A DNA stretch of 64,000 nt from an uncultured Rhodospirillaceae bacterium (GCA_964517415.1 CAZFCA010000001.1:54969-118968), one strand, 5' to 3'. Numbered from the stretch's first letter, positions 1-20,643 are shown. The notes: a model not told the origin generated them from the letters alone. Numbers and translations are program-made.

Positions 1-764
1 AAATCGGCCAAAGAGCGCGTCGCGTAAAGCAAAACACCAACGGCTCCCAAGGCTGCCAGAAACCCCGCCGCAGCCGCGCGGGAAGATATGTGCAAAGCCT
101 GCTTTTCGAAATGGTTGCCGATGTCTTTGTCGTCCGTGCCGATCAGATGCAAAAGCGAGATCGTGTCGCGCTCCGAGGCCATGACGGCGCGGCAAATCAG
201 GCTGACGGTGATGATCAGCGACAGCCCCGTCAGGAAGATGGTCAGCCCGCCCAAAATGGTCAGGCCGCTCACAAGGCGGCCGACATCCTGCTCCCAGACT
301 CCATGGTCGTCGACGCGCGCGTCGCTTAATACGTTTTTCAGGGCTTTTTGGATATCGGCGGCCGCCAGCGTGGCGCCGGGCTTGCGCTCGATATCGATCA
401 GGGAAGGCAAAGGCAGAACTTTCAACATATCGGACTTGTTAAACCACGGCTGCACAAGACGGCGCACTTCCGCATCGGACAGCGGCTTGACCCGCTCGAC
501 TTCCGGCAGCGTTCGAAGAATGGAGACGGCTTGGCGAACGCGGTCGATTTGCGGCATGGCCGCTTCGTCGCCCAAGGCAGGGATTTCGACGGTCAATGTA
601 TTTGCTGCCGACTGCTCCCACAAATGCCCTGCCGTGAGCAGGAGTGCCTCGGCGACCGTCGCAAAGCTCGCAATAAAAACGACGATGCCGACAATCGCGC
701 TAAACGATCGTCCCAAATGTTGATGCCTGAATGCAGGCGTGAATAAATGGCGGGGAAGGGACAT
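1..764 (-). CDS. ftsX: FtsX-like permease family protein (cell-division FtsX type), N-terminus at 764, C-terminal end runs past the window edge
   Basis: Manual minus-strand translation is an open frame from ATG 764..762 to position 1: MSLPRHLFTPAFRHQHLGRSFSAIVGIVVFIASFATVAEALLLTAGHLWEQ (TM1), about 115 aa periplasmic segment (..VRQAVSILRTLPEVERVKPLSDAEV..), then TM helices (LVSGLTILGGLTIFLTGLSLIITVSLI, FLAALGAVGVLLYATRSLAD). It is missing from the ORF track because there is no stop inside the window. The plus-strand ORFs 88..746 are its antisense. Confidence 0.6.
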   Translation of the reverse strand, partial: MSLPRHLFTPAFRHQHLGRSFSAIVGIVVFIASFATVAEALLLTAGHLWEQSAANTLTVEIPALGDEAAMPQIDRVRQAVSILRTLPEVERVKPLSDAEVRRLVQPWFNKSDMLKVLPLPSLIDIERKPGATLAAADIQKALKNVLSDARVDDHGVWEQDVGRLVSGLTILGGLTIFLTGLSLIITVSLICRAVMASERDTISLLHLIGTDDKDIGNHFEKQALHISSRAAAAGFLAALGAVGVLLYATRSLAD

Positions 765-869
765 TAAAGGATGCGGAAAGGGGGTTGGGATTTTAGATAG
801 AGGATAGGTGTCGGATGATATTAGTCAATCCGCCTTTTTATTAGGCTTTGTCTTGATTGTACAATATCG

Positions 870-1787
870 TTAAACAATAATCGTACCTTCTGCATAGACA
901 TCGAAAAACGTGGGCTGAGCAGATTTTATCTCTTGTTTCGAGGATGAAGTCTCAACAACAATTTTTCTGGATAGCCCTTCTGTCTCTTTTGCTACGCGCT
1001 CTATTGCTACGGTACAATAGGCTGCACTGTTGTCGATAAGTAAGGCGTTCCTGTTTGTCTGTAGGGCTGCAATTCCTGTTGTTCCTGATCCACCAAAAGG
1101 ATCGATGATCAATGAACCGGGACGGCTTAGCAGTTTGATAAAAAAGAGTGGTAATTCAAGAGGGAAAACAGCAGGATGTCCCTTGTTTTTTCCCACTAAT
1201 GCGGCTGTAATGACATTGGAGGGCAAAACATCTTTTTTTCCGACCCAACGGGATATGTCCCTTCCAAAACCACTTCGGTTTTCACTATTGTGCCGAGCCT
1301 TGTCATTGATGCCAAGATTTTGAAGCCGCGATTTGACCCATGAGCCGACGGGAATGCGAACACTATCTTGGTCCATATAGGGACGCTTATTCTTGGAAAG
1401 ATGAAAACAATACTCCCACCCATCTCGTAAACGATTTGGCCAGAAGCCGGGCATAGGGTTTGGTTTATGCCAAATATAATCTTCTATGCAGAACCATCCT
1501 GCATCACGAAGCCTCATAATGGTTTCCCAAACATATCGATGTCTTGTTCCATCGACGACCTTGTCCTTAATGTTAATCACGAGGGAGCCGTCGGGTTTTA
1601 GACATTCCCAAAAAGCATCATGAAATGTCATGAACCAATCTGCAAACGCATCTGGATGCATACTGTCATAATGGCTCTTTCGCGCATCGGCATAAGGGGG
1701 CGAAGTAACAATGAGATCTGCTTGCCCCTGATGTTTCCGTAAAACCTGACGGCAATCCCCCTCAGAAATTGTGCAAGTATTCATCAT
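870..1787 (-). CDS. Type II DNA methyltransferase, beta-class (motif IV SPPY precedes motif I FGGSGTT); N4-cytosine or N6-adenine specific
   Basis: ORF track 870..1802. The real ATG (MMNTC..) is preceded by a perfect AAGGAGG SD. Motifs LIVTSPPYA and IIDPFGGSGTTG are in the beta-class order. Local GC is clearly below the flanks. Confidence 0.8.
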   Translation of the reverse strand: MMNTCTISEGDCRQVLRKHQGQADLIVTSPPYADARKSHYDSMHPDAFADWFMTFHDAFWECLKPDGSLVINIKDKVVDGTRHRYVWETIMRLRDAGWFCIEDYIWHKPNPMPGFWPNRLRDGWEYCFHLSKNKRPYMDQDSVRIPVGSWVKSRLQNLGINDKARHNSENRSGFGRDISRWVGKKDVLPSNVITAALVGKNKGHPAVFPLELPLFFIKLLSRPGSLIIDPFGGSGTTGIAALQTNRNALLIDNSAAYCTVAIERVAKETEGLSRKIVVETSSSKQEIKSAQPTFFDVYAEGTIIV

Positions 1788-2710
1788 GCCTCCTTGCTGC
1801 AAAACGCAAGGAATTTGCGAGGGTCGATCAATCCTTTTTCATTCAACAACCCTAGTTCCAGCAATTTTTCTTTGAGCAAAAGTGCGCACTCTGATTTATA
1901 CTTGAGGGTCATAAAGGGCAGGTGCTTTGCCACATGTTTAAACGCTAGTGCATAAATTTCGTTTGCCTGTCTTCCAGTCAGATATGGAAAAAGAAAGCCA
2001 GGCCCCCAAGTCTCGCAATTCATTGAATACCAATTTTTGTTTTTATCCCGTTTAACTTTTCTGTCTTTATTATAAGGACGAATTTTCCCTCCCGAAGGAG
2101 TTGCCACAGCTATCACGCATAAATAGGGACGGGTAAGATTTTTTTCCTGTTTTGCGCGTGTTTCCAGACGCCGAATAACCCCACCCACATCTTGCCCCCC
2201 GACTGTATCGCCGGATTTTTTCACAGACATGTATATTCTTAAGCCTTGTTTATGAGCGCCGATATGCGGTGTATCTATATCGACAACAATATCGTCCTCG
2301 CTGCTTCCATCAAAGCTCTTCGAAAAACGCTGATGAACTAACTCGAGAAGGAGATACTGATAAAATAAGCCCATCGCGATTCGATGCTGCTGCATTTCAT
2401 GGCTAACAGCATCTAATTCGAAAACATTTTCCACTTCGCATTGTGCCAAAAATGATGGCGACAAGATGGGGTCGCTGCGTTCTCTCAGATGCTTAATGCA
2501 CTGATCGATCAACTGTTCGGGAGTGTCTCGCCTCATTTTTGTTTTGCCAGTTTTATCGAGGCCTGATCGTTGAAAAGCCCGGTCGATAATAAGGTCAATG
2601 CTCTTGGTGTCCATAGGGGGCGGGATTGCATAAAGATTGTCGTCAGACAGCACCTCGCCCTCGGTTCGCGCATACGTTTGCATGGGGTGTTGTGCTGTGC
2701 GTTTAGCCAT
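1784..2710 (-). CDS. Putative type II restriction endonuclease partner of the downstream methyltransferase (family not recognisable)
   Basis: 308-aa ORF immediately upstream and co-oriented with the MTase. Its stop overlaps the MTase start (ATGA). Low GC, no homolog recognised. Assignment is by context only. Confidence 0.5.
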   Translation of the reverse strand: MAKRTAQHPMQTYARTEGEVLSDDNLYAIPPPMDTKSIDLIIDRAFQRSGLDKTGKTKMRRDTPEQLIDQCIKHLRERSDPILSPSFLAQCEVENVFELDAVSHEMQQHRIAMGLFYQYLLLELVHQRFSKSFDGSSEDDIVVDIDTPHIGAHKQGLRIYMSVKKSGDTVGGQDVGGVIRRLETRAKQEKNLTRPYLCVIAVATPSGGKIRPYNKDRKVKRDKNKNWYSMNCETWGPGFLFPYLTGRQANEIYALAFKHVAKHLPFMTLKYKSECALLLKEKLLELGLLNEKGLIDPRKFLAFCSKEA

Positions 2711-2822
2711 TTTGGAGTAATTCTTTCAAAACGAGATGCAACTAAACCTAACACTGCAACGTTGATTCGACTAGAAGGACATTGCTGCGCTCCTTTGTTA
2801 ATATAGTGACGGTTTTAGTGAT

Positions 2823-3665
2823 TTATAATCCCCTAACGCTAACCCCTTTATATTCCGTGCGCAAAGCATCGTGAAGGGCGGGAAACAGGGCGGCGATTTC
2901 ATCGTCCAGTTTCCACGGCGGGTTGACGATCATCATGCCGCATCCGTTCAAGCGGTCGGCGCGAACGTCCTCGTGATAAACGAATTCCGCGCATAAAATT
3001 TTCGGAATGCCGGAACGCGCCAAGGCTTCGTGAAATTTCCAAATCGCGGGGCGATCCTTCACGGGATACCAGATCAAGTAAATCCCATTCGGCCAGCGGC
3101 GATGGGCGGCGACAAGATTTTTCACGACGGCGTCGAATTCGTCCGGCTGTTCATAGGGCGGATCGATCAACGCAAGCCCGCGCTTTTCCGGCGGCGGAAG
3201 AAAAGCGCGAAGCGCGGCAAAGCCGTCGCGCGCATGGACTTGAAAACGCGCATCCTTCGGCGCTTGAAGGCGAAGAATTTCAGCGTCTTCGGGATGCATC
3301 TCGCACGCGATCAGGCGATCCTGCGCCCGCAGCATATGATACGCGAAAAGCGGCGAGCCCGGATAAACTCGAAAGCCTTGCGCGCTTTTGCCGTCCCAAA
3401 GGGGGTTCATTTTCCGCAAAACCGCCATGGTGTCAGCAAGCGCGGGCAGGGCGGGGGCGTTCAAAAGGCTGAGTATTCCTTCCGTCGATTCCTCGGTTTT
3501 TTTCGCGCGGGGGTCTTCAAGATCGTAAAAGCCGATCCCTGCGTGCGTGTCGAGGACGGCAAAAGGGGTTTCCTTGTCGCGCAGACGGCGCAGAACAAGC
3601 GTCAAAATAGCGTGTTTGACGACATCGCAGCGGTTGCCCGCGTGAAAAATGTGGCGGTAGTTCAT
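2823..3665 (-). CDS. rlmJ: 23S rRNA (adenine2030-N6)-methyltransferase RlmJ
   Basis: N-terminus MNYRHIFHAGNRCDVVKH and the LIDPPYE motif are characteristic of the RlmJ/YhiR family. 280 aa. Confidence 0.8.
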   Translation of the reverse strand: MNYRHIFHAGNRCDVVKHAILTLVLRRLRDKETPFAVLDTHAGIGFYDLEDPRAKKTEESTEGILSLLNAPALPALADTMAVLRKMNPLWDGKSAQGFRVYPGSPLFAYHMLRAQDRLIACEMHPEDAEILRLQAPKDARFQVHARDGFAALRAFLPPPEKRGLALIDPPYEQPDEFDAVVKNLVAAHRRWPNGIYLIWYPVKDRPAIWKFHEALARSGIPKILCAEFVYHEDVRADRLNGCGMMIVNPPWKLDDEIAALFPALHDALRTEYKGVSVRGL

Positions 3666-6604: not shown

Positions 6605-8040
<1,436 letters not shown>

Positions 8041-8041
<1 letters not shown>

Positions 8042-8445
8042 TGCCTGAAACGTTCACCTTTGAACTGGTGTCTCCTGAAAAGGTGCTGTTCAGCGGGCCT
8101 GCGCTGATGGTGACCGTGCCGGGCGAGCAGGGCGAATACGGCGTTTTGCCTGCCCATGCGCCGATGATCACGATGCTGAAGCCGGGCGTGATCGCCGTTT
8201 ATGCGAACGATTTAGCCGCGCCTTCGGCAAAGCTGTTCGTCGCGGGCGGCTTTGCGGAAGTCACGCAATCGCGCCTTACCATTTTGGCCGACGAAGCGAT
8301 GCCGGTCTGCGATTTGAACGCCGCCGAACTGTCCGATCATTGCAAGGATTTGGCCAAACAGCTTGCCGCTGTCGACGAAACCCAGCGCGCCGCGCTTCAG
8401 GCCAAGCATGATGTGGTTATGGCCAAAATAGCGGCGGTTGCGTAA
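8041..8445 (+). CDS. atpC: ATP synthase F1 epsilon subunit
   Basis: 134 aa, start overlaps the atpD stop (TAATG). Typical epsilon N-terminal beta-sandwich sequence. Confidence 0.9.
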
Positions 8446-8514
8446 TACTCTTTCAGGGCGGGATGACGACTGAATTCTTCTGAATCCTGAAATTCGAATC
8501 CTGAACCAATTTTT

Positions 8515-9276
8515 ATGCTCAACCCCGAAACCATCCTTATCACCGGCGCGTCGAGCGGCCTTGGGGCGGCGATGGCGGAATTGTATGCGGAACAAGGAAC
8601 GCATTTATTTCTGCATGGGAGAAACGCCGAAAGGCTTGCGGCCATAGCGGATAAAGTGCGCGGGCGAGGGGCGACTTGTGATGTTCATTGCGGCGACGTT
8701 TCGGACGCGCCCGCGATGGAGGCATGGATCAACGCTTGCGACGAGCAAAAGCCGCTTGATCTGGTTATCGTTAATGCGGGCATTTCAGCCGGAACGGGCG
8801 GCAGGGGCGAAACGGCCGCCCAAACGAAGGCGATCTTTTCCATAAACGTGTCGGGCGTTCTCAACACCGCGCATCCGGCCGCGCAAGTGATGAAAGCCCG
8901 GCGGCGCGGGCAGATCGCGATGATCAGCTCGCTAGCTGGCTTTCGCGGTTTCCCGGGCGCGCCCGCTTACTGCGCCAGCAAAGCCGCCGTGCGGATATAT
9001 GGCGAAGGCTTGCGCGGGGAGCTTGCGCGGCACGGTGTCGAGGTCTGCGTCGTTTGTCCGGGTTTCGTCAAAACGCCCATGACCGACGTAAACCGGTTTT
9101 CTATGCCGTTTTTGATGGATGCGCAGAAAGCGGCGCGGATTATCCAACAAGGGCTGTCCCGCAACCGTCCGCGCATCGCCTTTCCGTGGCCGATGTACTT
9201 GGGGATTCTGTTGCTTTCGCTTTTGCCGCAGAGATTGCTTGATAGAGCATTAAGGCTTACGCCGAGAAAGATTTAA
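8515..9276 (+). CDS. Short-chain dehydrogenase/reductase (SDR) family oxidoreductase
   Basis: TGASSGLGAAMA Rossmann motif and YCASKAA catalytic motif. Confidence 0.8.
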   Translation: MLNPETILITGASSGLGAAMAELYAEQGTHLFLHGRNAERLAAIADKVRGRGATCDVHCGDVSDAPAMEAWINACDEQKPLDLVIVNAGISAGTGGRGETAAQTKAIFSINVSGVLNTAHPAAQVMKARRRGQIAMISSLAGFRGFPGAPAYCASKAAVRIYGEGLRGELARHGVEVCVVCPGFVKTPMTDVNRFSMPFLMDAQKAARIIQQGLSRNRPRIAFPWPMYLGILLLSLLPQRLLDRALRLTPRKI

Positions 9277-17325: not shown

Positions 17326-17967
17326 ATGCTAGGAATTCTCTGCGGCCTTGAATCCGAAAGAAAAATCGCCAGGAAAATCGACGGCGCGTTGGTGTCTTGC
17401 GCGGCGGCAAGGCCGCATATGGCGCGTGAATTGGCGCGGGAGCTTGTGGCGCTCGGCGCCACGCGCCTGATGAGCTTTGGCATCGCAGGCTCGCTGGAGC
17501 CTTCCGTGAGGCTGGGCGATGTTTTTATCGGCACGCGGGTTGAGAACGACAAAGGCCGCTGGGAATGCGACGAAGCATGGGGACGCGAGCTTGCGATGAA
17601 AATTCCGCATGCCAAGCGCGGCGGCATTTACGGCTCCGAAGTTTTGGTCGCGACGTGCGAGGCGAAAAGCGCGCTTTTTCGGGGTACGGGATGCGCTATC
17701 GTCGATATGGAAAGCCAATGCGCGGCCGAGGCTGCGGCGCAGGCAAAGCTGCCTTTCACCGTCATTCGCGCGGTGTGCGACGACGCCGGAATGAACGTGC
17801 CGCCCTTCGTCATGGCGGCGATTAATCCCGATGGCAGCACGAACGTCCTTCGCGCGATGGCGCATCTGGCGATGCATCCTTCCCATACGCGGGATCTGTG
17901 GCATGTCATCGGCGGCATGACCCGCGCTTTAAGGGAGCTGAAGGGCATCAGAAATAGTTTAGCATAG
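17326..17967 (+). CDS. hpnG: Hopanoid-associated phosphorylase/nucleosidase HpnG (PNP/UDP family)
   Basis: Immediately follows shc. PNP_UDP_1-like sequence (GIAGSL, VDMESQ). Confidence 0.8.
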   Translation: MLGILCGLESERKIARKIDGALVSCAAARPHMARELARELVALGATRLMSFGIAGSLEPSVRLGDVFIGTRVENDKGRWECDEAWGRELAMKIPHAKRGGIYGSEVLVATCEAKSALFRGTGCAIVDMESQCAAEAAAQAKLPFTVIRAVCDDAGMNVPPFVMAAINPDGSTNVLRAMAHLAMHPSHTRDLWHVIGGMTRALRELKGIRNSLA

Positions 17968-18113
17968 GCTTGCATTAATTATATTTATCACTTAATTGCA
18001 TTCAGCGTTTTTGCAAAAAATTGCTTTGCTGAACTGAAATTTAAGTTATTGCGCATTTTTTTGATCATTTGATCTTGCGCGTATATTGCACAATCTATGA
18101 GATACGAGGAATA

Positions 18114-18434
18114 ATGGTCACTTTAGTTGGTATTATTAGGGTTATTCCCGGATGCGCTTCGGGTGTTTTGGCGGCAACTTATCCCCAAGCTGCGGTCCCG
18201 ATCATCGGTACGGGATTATGCATGGGCGCAGTTTTGCATGCCTTTCAAGAAACGGGACAGTCAACATCCACAAAGATGATAGAAGGTGTTTTTTTTAACG
18301 GCCTTGGGTGTATGTTTGCTTATTTTCTCGAGGACCAATTTAGTTCTAACTTTTCTTCTGCCTCTCATTGCGTATGCTCGGGCAACACGACGCCTGTTGC
18401 CGCTAATTCTGCGGCGTTGCATCGTAGCCCTTAG
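18114..18434 (+). CDS. Hypothetical small hydrophobic protein in AT-rich region
   Basis: ATG preceded by a GAGGAA RBS. About 42% GC. No homolog recognised. Could be non-coding. Confidence 0.25.
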   Translation: MVTLVGIIRVIPGCASGVLAATYPQAAVPIIGTGLCMGAVLHAFQETGQSTSTKMIEGVFFNGLGCMFAYFLEDQFSSNFSSASHCVCSGNTTPVAANSAALHRSP

Positions 18435-18875
18435 AGCAGTATCAGTTCAGATAAAAGGGATTCAGACTGGCTATCGGAAGATATGACGGTTAGTTATTCG
18501 CAGCGATCAACGAATGAGTGACAGGCAAGTCCTCCATCCATTAACCATGCCCAAAAAATATTTTTACATACTCCCAAAATAAATCTTGCATTTATCCCAC
18601 ACGTGTGATACATCCCACCCTGCATCCTCACGAGGGATGCTGATTATGCGGCTCGTCACCCAGCCAAGCCCAGGGATTGCGGGAACAGGGGAACCGATAA
18701 TCAAAGGCACGTTTGCTCAGCGGCTTTCGCTTGCGCGAAGCTCACATGTGAAACCTGTCTTATTTTTAATAGAGCTTATAAGGAGCTTGTTTTGAAGAAA
18801 GAATATGAAGGATAAAAACAAAATGAAGTAAATCCGACAGAAACACCCAAAGATATTATAATAACCCGCTCTCTT

Positions 18876-18960
18876 GGTTGTCATTCCGCAACCTGTCACT
18901 CACTCGTATAAAGAATGTTTGAGTATTATGAACAGCGATTGGCGAGTGAGTGACAGGTGT
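18876..18960. repeat. Inverted repeat (arms ..TTCCGCAACCTGTCACTCACTCG / CGAGTGAGTGACAGGTGTGCGGAA..) with about 35-bp spacer; related copies at 9305-9330 and 18515-18535
   Basis: Read directly from the sequence. Member of a TGTCATTCCG.AACCTGTCAC-type short repeat family. Confidence 0.5.
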
Positions 18961-18974
18961 GCGGAATCCAGGCG

Positions 18975-19200
18975 TCATCGCCATAAAAAATGTCAGCGCG
19001 GATTATTCCCGCCGCCAACGCACGCCCAAATTTTTGCCGCCATATTCTACGGAAAGTCAGCCTGGATCCCCGCCTTCGCGGGGATGACGTCGTTATTATT
19101 GAGCGGGAAGTACTCTGCCCGATGATGACGTCGGTATTATTGCAGGACAGTTCTTTGCCCGATGATGACTCTGCTATTATGGACAAAGCGGTTCTTCTAT
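18975..19200. repeat. Intergenic repeat element sharing sequence (AATGTCAGCGCGGATTATTC; REP; GTTATTATTG; TTTGCCCGATGATGA) with the 44.43-44.86 kb intergenic region
   Basis: Direct comparison of the two regions. Both lie between convergent genes. Confidence 0.55.
19056..19089. repeat. REP/MITE-like palindromic unit GTCAGCCTGGATCCCCGCCTTCGCGGGGATGACG
   Basis: Core ATCCCCGC-N6-GCGGGGAT palindrome with a CAGCCTGGA flank. Family members at 35168, 35213, 44522, 44703, 46535, 47698 and 55233. Confidence 0.7.
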
Positions 19201-19260
19201 TCCCCGAATCCACAATCAAGAATGTTCGATCCCTAGCCCCTAACCCCTAATCCCCCGACC

Positions 19261-20643
19261 TCAGTCTCTTAGCCACTCCGCGAAATCCCTTTTTGCCCTT
19301 TGCGTATAAAGCAGCTTCCTGTCGCGTTTGCCTTTGCCTTCGGTTATGGGCGGGAAAAGGCCGAAGGCGACGTTCATGGGCTGGAAAGTCTGCGCGTTTG
19401 CATCGCCTGTAATATGCGCGACAAGCGCGCCCATGGCCGTTGTGCGCGGCGGGGCGGTTCGCGTTTCGCCTTTGCGCTCGGCGGCGGCGAACAAGCCCGC
19501 CAGCAATCCCATGGCGGCGGATTCCACATAGCCTTCGACTCCCGTCATTTGCCCCGCAAAGCGAAGATGCGGCCTGCTTTTCAGGCGCAGTTGTTCATCC
19601 AGCAAAAGGGGACTGTTGATGAACGTGTTACGATGCAGCCCGCCAAGGCGGGCGAATTCCGCGTTCTCTAACCCGGGGATCATGCGGAAAACGCGCGTTT
19701 GGTCGGCGTATTTCATTTTTGTCTGGAAGCCGACGAGATTATAAAGCGTGCCCAGCGCGTTATCCTGCCGCAGTTGCACGACCGCATAAGGCCGCTTGTC
19801 CGAATGCGGATTGGTAAGTCCCACAGGCTTCATGGGGCCGTAGCGCAGAGTATCGAGGCCGCGCTCCGCCATCACTTCGATAGGCAAACAACCATCGAAA
19901 TATTTAATTATGTTGCCGCGACTGCTCTGCGCTTCGCGCAACCGCGACTGCGGTATTTCCCAGTCTTTAAATTCCGTCTTTTCCGCGTTCAAAAGTTCGC
20001 GCACGAAGTGTTCGTACTGTTCCTGATCCATCGCGCAGTTGATGTAATCCGCGCCCGTGCCTTCGGGCCCGACTTTGTCGTAGCGCGATTGCATCCATGC
20101 TTTTGACATATCAATGCTCTCGCGCACGACAATGGGCGCAATGGCATCGAAGAAGGAAAGAGAGTCCATGCCCGCGGCCTCGCGGATGGATTCCGCCAGC
20201 GGTTCGGAAGTCAAAGGGCCGGAAGCGATAATGACGGAATCCATGTCGGCGGCAGAGGGCAGGGCGGTGATTTCCTCCCGCGCAATTTTAATAAGCGGAT
20301 GCTTTTCAAGCGCGGCGGTAATATCGGCGGCAAAGGCTTCGCGATCTACGGCCAATGCGCCTCCGGCGGGGACTTTATGCCGATCCGCCGCCGCCATGAC
20401 AAGAGAACCGCAGCGCCTCATTTCGTCATGCAAAAGGCCTACGGCGTTGTAGTCGCTGTCGTCGGAACGCAGGGAGTTGGAGCAAACCAATTCGGCAAGC
20501 GCATTTGATTTATGCGCCTCGGTATTCTTATGCGGGCGCATTTCATGCAAGACGACCGGAACGCCTGCTTGCGCGGCCTGCCATGCCGCCTCGCAGCCCG
20601 CAAGCCCGCCGCCGATGATGTGGATGGGAAGTATAGTGGTCAT
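19261..20643 (-). CDS. trmFO: Methylenetetrahydrofolate--tRNA-(uracil-5-)-methyltransferase TrmFO (Gid)
   Basis: N-terminal FAD motif [16 protein letters not shown], 460 aa, TrmFO-type rather than MnmG (too short). Confidence 0.9.

What the first reader, a model, noticed from the sequence alone, without database searches (positions are those of the whole stretch)
870..2710. Low-GC type II restriction-modification module with overlapping R and M genes
A beta-class amino-MTase (SPPY before FGGSGTT) sits directly downstream of a 308-aa ORF of unknown family that is presumably the cognate endonuclease. The REase stop and MTase start overlap (ATGA), and a perfect AAGGAGG SD lies inside the REase 3' end. 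GC is about 45% against about 60% in the flanks, which suggests horizontal acquisition. The R gene belongs to no family recognisable by eye and could be a novel REase.
Basis: partly seen in the sequence, partly recalled or inferred. Interest (0 to 1): 0.55.

Follow-up and report, generated by a model that had tools for sequence, protein, structure and literature searches.

The report
Two-gene restriction-modification cassette, uncatalogued nuclease family
This is an ordinary, horizontally acquired two-gene restriction-modification (bacterial anti-phage) module, and its only unusual feature is that the cutting enzyme belongs to a widespread family absent from the standard protein-family libraries, with a predicted fold closest to the known enzyme EcoO109I.

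Summary
Two minus-strand genes, a 308-aa ORF (2710..1784) and a beta-class amino-methyltransferase (1787..870), overlap by ATGA. They fill a 2.1-kb island of 44.6% GC, the lowest-GC 2-kb stretch of the window.

The interpretation also holds. The MTase is PF01555 (E 2.7e-38), and its nearest solved relative is the N4-cytosine enzyme M.PvuII.

Homologues sit next to this MTase family in 72 of 73 informative metagenome loci. The flanks are unrelated and the gene orientation varies. None of 80 related alphaproteobacterial loci carries either gene next to rlmJ.

This is therefore a mobile Type II R-M system with an uncatalogued but structurally conventional nuclease. Its specificity is unknown; CAGCTG is a weak lead. 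It is a new member of a known kind, of modest interest.

The parts
1784..2710 (-). R gene: 308-aa predicted Type II restriction endonuclease. PD-(D/E)XK fold, EcoO109I-like, in a sequence family absent from Pfam, NCBIfam, PADLOC and PHROGs.
2291..2299 (-). Codons for E138-D139-D140, the 'E-x-D' half of the predicted active site. D140 is invariant even in 21-26%-identical relatives.
   Evidence: Alignments A1 and A2. EcoO109I active-site variant E108-P-D110...xxK described in PMC3424549. Codons read.
2219..2227 (-). Codons for S162-V163-K164, the '(D/E)xK' position of the predicted active site on core strand beta-3. One distant relative has QxK here, as AvaII does.
   Evidence: AvaII Q161-x-K163 in PMC7337904.
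2162..2164 (-). Codon for E183, invariant across the whole superfamily, on the helix after beta-3. It is a candidate additional metal ligand, by analogy with Cfr10I-type PD-xxK-E sites.
   Evidence: Its role is inferred only.
870..1787 (-). M gene: beta-class N4/N6 amino-DNA-methyltransferase, 305 aa from the first ATG or 304 aa from the ATG at 1784.
   Evidence: PF01555 E 2.7e-38. PADLOC MTase_II 3.2e-46. Best solved relative M.PvuII, 1.2e-29 over residues 10-259. 1646 homologues.
1692..1703 (-). Motif IV, SPPY (catalytic loop).
   Evidence: Read. Aligned to SPPF of M.PvuII.
1077..1097 (-). Motif I, FGGSGTT (AdoMet binding). It lies C-terminal to motif IV, which is the beta-class order.
   Evidence: Read. 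Aligned to FGGSNTT of M.PvuII.
1784..1795 (-). Gene junction: AAGGAGG (1795-1789), then ATGATGA, in which the R stop TGA (1786-1784) overlaps the M start. Probable translational coupling.
   Evidence: In 59 co-directional homologous cassettes the stop/start distance is -4 in 14, +4 in 12, -32 in 8, and -1, -8 and -11 in 4 each.
750..2822 (.). Low-GC island (44.6%): the two genes plus their 105-nt and 112-nt intergenic flanks. It lies between an FtsX-like gene (runs off the window start, minus strand) and rlmJ (2823-3665, minus strand).
   Evidence: No flanking direct or inverted repeats beyond chance.

Best explanation
This is a horizontally acquired, self-contained Type II restriction-modification cassette.

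MTase. The downstream gene encodes a beta-class amino-methyltransferase. It uses AdoMet to methylate an exocyclic amino group in a short recognition sequence on host DNA. N4 of cytosine is the more likely target, given the SPPY motif and the M.PvuII relationship.

REase. The upstream gene encodes the cognate Mg2+-dependent PD-(D/E)XK endonuclease. It probably acts as a homodimer, like its structural neighbour EcoO109I, and cuts the same sequence when it is unmethylated, as in incoming phage or plasmid DNA. The predicted catalytic residues are E138, D140 and K164, with S162 at the usual acidic position and possibly E183.

Expression. The two genes are co-transcribed R then M, and M translation is coupled to R termination at the ATGA/AAGGAGG junction. 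There is no controller (C) protein.

What is shown: gene anatomy, family assignments, predicted fold, conserved motif, obligate R-M pairing across genomes, compositional foreignness, and absence from related genomes.

What is inferred: catalysis, dimeric state, base modified, recognition sequence. CAGCTG is a weak lead, at about 0.25 probability.
For: - Anatomy and motifs.
- MTase family: PF01555 2.7e-38, PADLOC MTase_II, M.PvuII 1.2e-29 aligned over nearly the full length.
- Motif: E138-x-D140...S162-x-K164 is invariant in the close family. D140 is invariant and S162/K164 nearly invariant in relatives of 19-26% identity, and E183 is invariant throughout. This matches the EcoO109I variant 'EPD-XXK' described in PMC3424549.
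- Linkage: R is followed by an N6_N4 MTase in 6 of 6 unrelated contexts, including an insertion between hisF and hisI. In 80 metagenome loci, 72 have the MTase adjacent and 7 of the other 8 end too early. The pair is co-directional, convergent or M-first in different subfamilies. An MTase 67% identical pairs with an R only 30% identical.
- Foreignness: GC z = -4.2 and low GC3. R and M are absent from 80 rlmJ loci of relatives.
Against: - No biochemical data exist, and no family member carries a functional name.
- Similarity to EcoO109I is structural only: 9-13% identity, and no Pfam hit of any kind for the window protein at E <= 1 beyond one chance-level match.
- The acidic residue normally at the (D/E)xK position is serine, so the metal-ligand set is inferred by analogy.
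- Some close MTase homologues (68% identity) have no R gene nearby, so this MTase family can persist alone.
- R-before-M operons without a C protein raise an unanswered question: how is the host protected on first entry? No internal promoter was found above chance.
Confidence: 0.85

Rival explanations
1. The MTase is effectively an orphan, with an epigenetic or regulatory role. The 308-aa protein is a non-catalytic or differently functioning DNA-binding partner: a PD-(D/E)XK-fold protein that has lost nuclease activity, or a regulator.
For: Serine replaces the canonical acidic residue in the (D/E)xK triad. Close MTase homologues occur without R. PD-(D/E)XK folds include non-nucleases (PMC3424549).
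Against: E138, D140, K164 and E183 are strictly conserved over ~300 sequences from many phyla. SxK and QxK variants are active in Cfr10I-type enzymes and AvaII. The pair moves as a unit with variable orientation, which is the signature of R-M pairs.
Confidence: 0.05
2. The cassette is a genuine R-M system by descent, but this copy is decaying or silent: either R is inactivated or the cassette is not expressed. Only methylation, if anything, would remain.
For: No convincing promoter was found in the 112-nt upstream spacer. Solitary MTases of the same family exist.
Against: Both ORFs are full length. The window R keeps every family-invariant residue. The junction keeps a perfect SD. The identical protein recurs in several independent metagenome assemblies.
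Confidence: 0.07
3. The pair belongs to a larger or different defence system, for example one with an additional specificity, helicase or controller component, rather than a two-gene Type IIP system.
For: The window copy sits in a slot downstream of rlmJ that also holds other low-GC genes in the closest relative.
Against: Flanking genes differ completely among 6 fully inspected contexts, and no third gene is shared. The island boundaries by GC enclose only the two genes. PADLOC matches only MTase_II and orphan-MTase models, and only for M.
Confidence: 0.03

Closest known systems
R.EcoO109I (Type IIP, RG/GNCCY; PDB 1wtd/1wte)
   Different: There is no detectable sequence similarity (9-13% identity in structural alignments) and no Pfam hit. 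The protein is 308 aa against 272 aa, and the D-to-K spacing is 24 against 16. The partner here is a beta-class amino-MTase without a C protein. From my own knowledge, the EcoO109I system uses a C5-cytosine MTase and a controller protein. Cross-host data do not support a GGNCC-type specificity here (O/E 0.84 against 0.76 in control loci).
PvuII R-M system (CAGCTG; M.PvuII, PDB 1boo)
   Same: M.PvuII is the nearest solved relative of the MTase (E 1.2e-29, aligned over residues 10-259). Both are beta class with an SPP(Y/F) motif typical of N4-cytosine enzymes. CAGCTG is the most depleted palindrome by the Markov estimate in 38 host contigs carrying the close subfamily (28 observed against 93.7 expected). 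It is also depleted in the window (3 against 14.5).
   Different: The alignment with M.PvuII is good in the catalytic motifs and poor in the target-recognition region. R is unrelated to the 157-aa R.PvuII, since no Pfam hit was found. There is no C protein and the gene order differs. The depletion signal is not unique: GTCGAC, AGATCT and CTAG-containing hexamers are similarly low.
Eco47II family (PF09553; GGNCC) and AvaII (G/GWCC)
   Different: All hits are below Pfam's gathering score, and the window protein itself gives none. AvaII is a much weaker structural match than EcoO109I.
Cfr10I/NgoMIV-type PD...SxK...E endonucleases
   Same: Serine sits at the first position of the xK triad. An invariant glutamate (E183) lies on the helix that follows beta-3, the position from which Cfr10I recruits its migrated glutamate.

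Membership tests
Type II restriction-modification system | Separate, adjacent REase and MTase genes that are inherited together | tested here: met
   The genes overlap in the window. The pair is adjacent in 6 of 6 and 72 of 73 informative loci, with unrelated flanks and variable orientation.
Type II restriction-modification system | Sequence-specific cleavage blocked by the cognate methylation | not testable with these tools
   This needs enzyme assays or a methylome. Only an indirect palindrome-depletion lead exists, for CAGCTG.
Beta-class N4/N6 amino-DNA-MTase (Pfam PF01555 N6_N4_Mtase) | Profile match above the curated threshold | tested here: met
   132.6 bits against a cut-off of 26.7, E 2.7e-38, covering profile positions 2-220 of 221.
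Beta-class N4/N6 amino-DNA-MTase (Pfam PF01555 N6_N4_Mtase) | Motif IV ((S/D/N)PP(Y/F)) N-terminal to motif I (FxGxG), with the target-recognition region between them | tested here: met
   SPPY at residues 29-32 and FGGSGTT at 231-237.
N4-cytosine-specific MTases (M.PvuII-like) | SPP(Y/F) rather than (D/N)PP(Y/F), and closest relatives that are m4C enzymes | tested here: inconclusive
   SPPY is present, and the best solved relative is M.PvuII (m4C) at 1.2e-29. Adenine enzymes (CcrM, RsrI, MboIIA, DpnA) score far weaker. Source annotations of homologues are mixed adenine/cytosine. The modified base has not been measured.
PD-(D/E)XK nuclease superfamily | Alpha-beta-beta-beta-alpha-beta core fold | tested here: met
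PD-(D/E)XK nuclease superfamily | Conserved acidic residues and lysine at the beta-2/beta-3 positions | tested here: met
   D140 is at the start of beta-2 and S162-x-K164 is on beta-3, with E138 and E183 conserved. This is a variant motif, as in EcoO109I and Cfr10I.
EcoO109I restriction endonuclease family | Detectable sequence homology to EcoO109I | tested here: not met
   phmmer and two family profiles against all PDB sequences at E <= 10 do not retrieve 1wtd. Pfam scans at E <= 1 gave no restriction-enzyme family for the window protein.
EcoO109I restriction endonuclease family | Shared overall architecture and active-site variant | tested here: met
Eco47II restriction endonuclease family (PF09553) | Profile match above the gathering score | tested here: not met
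   The window protein gives no hit. Six distant relatives score 15-20.5 bits against a cut-off of 25.9.
C-protein-controlled R-M systems (as PvuII, EcoO109I) | A small HTH controller gene next to R | tested here: not met
   The island holds only two genes, with spacers of 105 and 112 nt. No third shared gene appears in homologous loci.

The most novel reading that the evidence does not exclude
The 308-aa protein founds a widely dispersed restriction-endonuclease family that is not catalogued in Pfam, NCBIfam, PADLOC or PHROGs. It has about 300 clusters at 90% identity, found in Alphaproteobacteria, Nitrospirae, Bacteroidota, Planctomycetota and Chloroflexi. Its architecture is EcoO109I-like. 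On this reading it has been recruited to an M.PvuII-like m4C methyltransferase and cleaves CAGCTG. That would make it a structurally unrelated isoschizomer of PvuII, and would show that one MTase lineage (65-72% identical) can partner REase subfamilies as little as 30% identical to each other.
Probability: 0.25. Interest if true: 0.4.

Novelty: new member of a known kind. Interest (0 to 1): 0.3.

Why it matters
It adds a well-supported assignment (nuclease fold, catalytic residues, obligate MTase partner) to a family of about 300 proteins that carry no functional name. This family could be added to defence-system and R-M annotation libraries.

If the specificity were determined, it would provide either a new enzyme specificity or a non-homologous isoschizomer. 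It would also give a second, sequence-divergent example of the rare EcoO109I-type 'ExD...xxK' active site.

For the host genome it only marks a recent horizontal acquisition. Nothing here challenges current understanding of R-M systems.

Tried and rejected
- Sequence searches for R. Pfam, NCBIfam, PADLOC, PHROGs, PDB phmmer and two PDB profile searches gave no meaningful hit. The TraI and calcineurin-B-like hits at E 0.07-1 are chance.
- Vehicles. tblastn of R against 72,556 plasmids gave no match. A scan of 2.9 million viral contigs found no relative. No plasmid or phage vehicle was identified.
- Flanking repeats and integration scars. Nothing beyond short chance matches.
- Promoter and terminator scan. 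Counts equal the shuffled expectation. A promoter-like site inside R (2613-2586) was not pursued.
- GGNCC specificity. This hypothesis came from the EcoO109I fold and the Eco47II sub-threshold hits. GGNCC is the most depleted palindrome in the window (82 against 198). It is not depleted across 48 host contigs carrying the cassette (O/E 0.84 against 0.76 in control loci). I rejected it as attributable to this cassette.
- CAGCTG specificity. It ranks top by the Markov estimator in hosts of the close subfamily (O/E 0.30, against 0.68 in hosts of the divergent subfamily and 0.57 in control loci). It is also low in the window. With a neighbour-ratio estimator, however, AGATCT and CTAG-containing hexamers are as low, and GTCGAC nearly so. 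I kept it only as a weak lead.
- 'Weak SD on R, strong SD on M' as a family-wide expression design. Mean SD match is 3.5 against 3.8 of 6 across 59 cassettes, so I rejected it.
- MTase homologues paired with R.PvuII-type genes. Three contexts were inspected and none had one.
- Exact empty site in a sister genome. The upstream synteny (PG-binding gene, rlmJ) is conserved in 14 relatives, but the downstream side differs. No precise empty-site comparison was possible.
- The afdb50 fold library was unavailable. The organism name could not be recovered.

Full report
**1. Observation**

The minus strand of window 870-2710 carries two long ORFs. The first is a 308-aa ORF (2710..1784, ATG), here called R. 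The second is a 305-aa ORF (1787..870), here called M.

The R stop TGA (1786-1784) overlaps the first M ATG (1787-1785), giving ATGA. AAGGAGG lies at 1795-1789. That SD is 1 nt from the first ATG and 4 nt from a second in-frame ATG (1784-1782). The database copy of the protein is the 304-aa form. The overlap may therefore be 1 nt (TGATG) rather than 4.

Family-invariant residues Q11, Y13 and R15 support the ATG at 2710 as the R start. A 289-aa database copy would begin downstream of them.

SPPY (residues 29-32) precedes FGGSGTT (231-237) in M.

The stretch 750-2820 is 44.6% GC. This is the lowest of all 2.07-kb windows in the 64 kb, which average 54.8 +/- 2.4% (z = -4.2). GC3 is 0.45 and 0.40, against 0.56-0.64 in neighbouring genes.

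**2. The methyltransferase**

M matches Pfam PF01555 N6_N4_Mtase at E 2.7e-38 over the whole profile. It also matches PADLOC Type II MTase models, up to 3.2e-46.

Its best solved relative is the N4-cytosine enzyme M.PvuII (E 1.2e-29, residues 10-259 aligned to 20-288). N6-adenine enzymes (CcrM, RsrI, MboIIA, DpnA) score far lower. The alignment with M.PvuII is good around motifs IV-VIII and X-I and poor in the target-recognition region.

The motif order is beta class. SPPY, rather than DPPY or NPPY, is typical of m4C enzymes by established knowledge of amino-MTase motifs. The base modified remains an inference.

M has 1646 homologues at E <= 1e-20. The best 120 listed are 62-72% identical and carry only generic names.

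**3. The upstream protein**

R has no significant hit in Pfam, NCBIfam, PADLOC or PHROGs. It has no hit among PDB sequences, either as a single sequence or as family profiles.

It has 296 homologues at E <= 1e-3. The best 120 are about 270-325 aa and 51-64% identical, and all are unnamed or 'hypothetical'. Those with organism names include Nitrospirae, Sedimentisphaerales, Bacteroidales and Sphingobacteriia.

A profile search of 1.84 billion representative proteins found only 94 hits. The family is therefore compact. It has a fringe of full-length relatives at 19-26% identity.

*Predicted fold.* An AlphaFold2 model of the window protein has mean pLDDT 87.6 and pTM 0.84. Its element order is H93-128, E132-134, E140-145, E157-166, H175-188, E196-204, which is the alpha-beta-beta-beta-alpha-beta core of PD-(D/E)XK nucleases.
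- Foldseek against the PDB returns the Type IIP enzyme EcoO109I as the only hits with E <= 0.001 (E 1.5e-4, probability 1.0, TM 0.50-0.58 over about 305 columns).

*Active site.* In the close family E138, D140, S162, K164, D168, Q173, D174 and E183 are invariant. When the 19-26%-identical relatives are added, D140 and E183 stay invariant and S162 and K164 are kept in at least 90% of sequences. One relative has QxK.

PMC3424549 describes the EcoO109I active site as a variant. The glutamate has moved from the (D/E)xK triad to a position two residues before the PD aspartate: E108-P-D110...xxK126. R has exactly this pattern, E138-x-D140...S162-x-K164. AvaII, a relative of EcoO109I, uses Q161-x-K163 (PMC7337904).

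E183 lies on the helix after beta-3. That is where Cfr10I-type enzymes place a migrated glutamate. I could not inspect side-chain geometry in the model.

*Eco47II link.* Six of 25 family members, all of them distant relatives, give sub-threshold hits to Pfam RE_Eco47II over the catalytic core. The best E is 4e-4, at 15-20.5 bits against a cut-off of 25.9. This is the only recurrent Pfam family. It is a hint of remote homology to the GGNCC group of REases, not membership.

**4. Linkage and mobility**

In six independently inspected contexts R is immediately followed by an N6_N4 MTase, and the flanks are completely different each time. They include an insertion inside a histidine operon between hisF and hisI.

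A metagenome scan returned 80 loci with an R homologue. Of these, 72 have an M homologue adjacent. Seven of the other eight end before there is room for it.
- In the close subfamily the genes are co-directional, R then M. The stop/start distances are tight: -4 in 14 cassettes, +4 in 12, -32 in 8, and -1, -8 and -11 in 4 each.
- In a 43-46%-identical subfamily the genes are convergent.
- In two loci M precedes R.

A Chloroflexi MTase 67% identical to M pairs with an R relative only 30% identical. Two other 68%-identical MTases have no R nearby. Persistent pairing despite rearrangement, and no third shared gene, is what is expected of a Type II R-M pair.

R relatives were not found on plasmids or in viral contigs. 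No flanking repeats mark the island.

**5. Absence from relatives**

Eighty loci encoding relatives of the neighbouring rlmJ were fetched. They are Rhodospirillaceae-like MAGs at 62-79% identity, and Azospirillum and others at about 50%. None contains R or M.

The gene upstream of rlmJ is syntenic in the 14 closest loci, but the downstream slot is variable. In the closest relative it holds other low-GC genes. The MTase is therefore not a conserved orphan at this locus. An exact empty site could not be shown.

**6. Specificity (unresolved)**

I looked for the recognition site through palindrome depletion.

In the window, GGNCC is the most depleted palindrome (82 observed against 198 expected). 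AAGCTT (2 against 27), CGATCG (3 against 34), CCWGG, GCCGGC and CAGCTG (3 against 14.5) are also depleted.

Across 48 non-redundant host flanks (459 kb) of homologous cassettes, GGNCC is not depleted (O/E 0.84, against 0.76 in control loci). CAGCTG ranks first (O/E 0.40).

Restricting to the 38 hosts of the close subfamily gives CAGCTG 28 against 93.7 (0.30), GTCGAC 0.32 and AGATCT 0.43. In hosts of the divergent subfamily CAGCTG is 0.68, and in control loci 0.57.

A second estimator, the site count over the mean of its one-mismatch neighbours, gives CAGCTG 0.22 in hosts of the close subfamily and 0.21 in the window. It gives 0.78 in hosts of the divergent subfamily and 0.50 in the closest relatives. 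With that estimator, however, AGATCT and the CTAG-containing hexamers are equally low, and GTCGAC nearly so. Hosts of the close subfamily avoid palindromes generally.

CAGCTG also fits the M.PvuII relationship. I rate it a weak lead, at about 0.25 probability.

**7. Mechanism**

*Best explanation (confidence 0.85).* This is a mobile two-gene Type II R-M cassette. M methylates a short site on host DNA using AdoMet, probably at N4 of cytosine. R is a Mg2+-dependent PD-(D/E)XK endonuclease, probably a homodimer, with catalytic residues E138, D140 and K164 and perhaps E183. It cleaves the same site when it is unmodified.

The genes are co-transcribed, and M translation is coupled to R termination. 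No controller protein is present. How the host is protected on first entry is not explained. An SD-strength asymmetry is not a family feature, and promoter-like sites are at chance level.

*Rivals.*
- A non-catalytic partner with an effectively orphan MTase (0.05).
- A decayed or silent copy (0.07).
- Part of a larger system (0.03).

**8. Comparison and novelty**

The system works like any Type IIP R-M system.

R is structurally an EcoO109I-like enzyme and shares its unusual active-site arrangement. It fails the sequence-membership tests for the EcoO109I and Eco47II families. It is absent from PADLOC's defence-protein models.

M is an ordinary member of PF01555, closest to M.PvuII.

The finding is a new member of a known kind: a conventional R-M module whose nuclease family has simply not been catalogued. 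REBASE could not be consulted.

Interest is modest (0.3). The most novel reading not excluded is a non-homologous PvuII isoschizomer family with an EcoO109I-like fold. That has probability about 0.25 and would merit about 0.4.

Noticed in passing
whole window (1-64000): Several palindromes are strongly depleted in the window but are not tied to this cassette: AAGCTT 2 observed against 26.9 expected, CGATCG 3 against 34.1, GGNCC 82 against 198, CCWGG 34 against 110, GCCGGC 11 against 35. Close relatives lacking the cassette show AAGCTT at O/E 0.88 and GGSCC at 0.90. The host genome probably carries, or recently carried, other R-M systems with HindIII-, PvuI- and Sau96I-like specificities.
   Followed up: partly
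window 17976-19260: A stretch of about 1.3 kb at ~44% GC has no ORF longer than 121 aa and no Rfam match. It lies between the gene at 17326-17967 (+) and the 460-aa gene at 19261-20643 (-). It is the second-lowest-GC kilobase of the window.
   Followed up: no
L014 6840-8800 (closest relative, uncultured Rhodospirillaceae MAG): The slot downstream of rlmJ, where the R-M cassette sits in the window, holds different lower-GC genes here: a 208-aa ORF at 7042-7668 and a 289-aa ORF at 7700-8569, neither identified. This position looks like a variable insertion hotspot in the lineage.
   Followed up: partly
L004 6001-7904 (also L005, L006): A homologous R-M pair (R 56% identical) is inserted inside a histidine-biosynthesis operon, between the hisF-like and hisI-like (PRA-CH) genes. 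It is co-directional with the operon and has overlapping gene boundaries.
   Followed up: no
L176 1130-6957: An MTase 68% identical to M stands without any R homologue. Its neighbours are a DDE transposase fragment, a second N6_N4 MTase fused to HNH repeats, and a GmrSD-type gene, so it may sit in a defence island.
   Followed up: no
L152, L154, L162, L164, L167-L170, L172, L173; L156, L157: In the more divergent R subfamily (43-48% identity) the MTase gene is convergent with R, or precedes it, rather than following it. Hosts of this subfamily do not show the CAGCTG depletion seen in hosts of the close subfamily. The two subfamilies may differ in specificity.
   Followed up: partly
window 2586-2613 (minus strand): The best sigma-70-like match in the region (TGGACA, 16-nt spacer, TATTAT; 10 of 12) lies about 100 nt inside the R coding sequence. 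If functional, it would give a transcript able to express M but not full-length R. The number of such sites in the region is at chance level.
   Followed up: no
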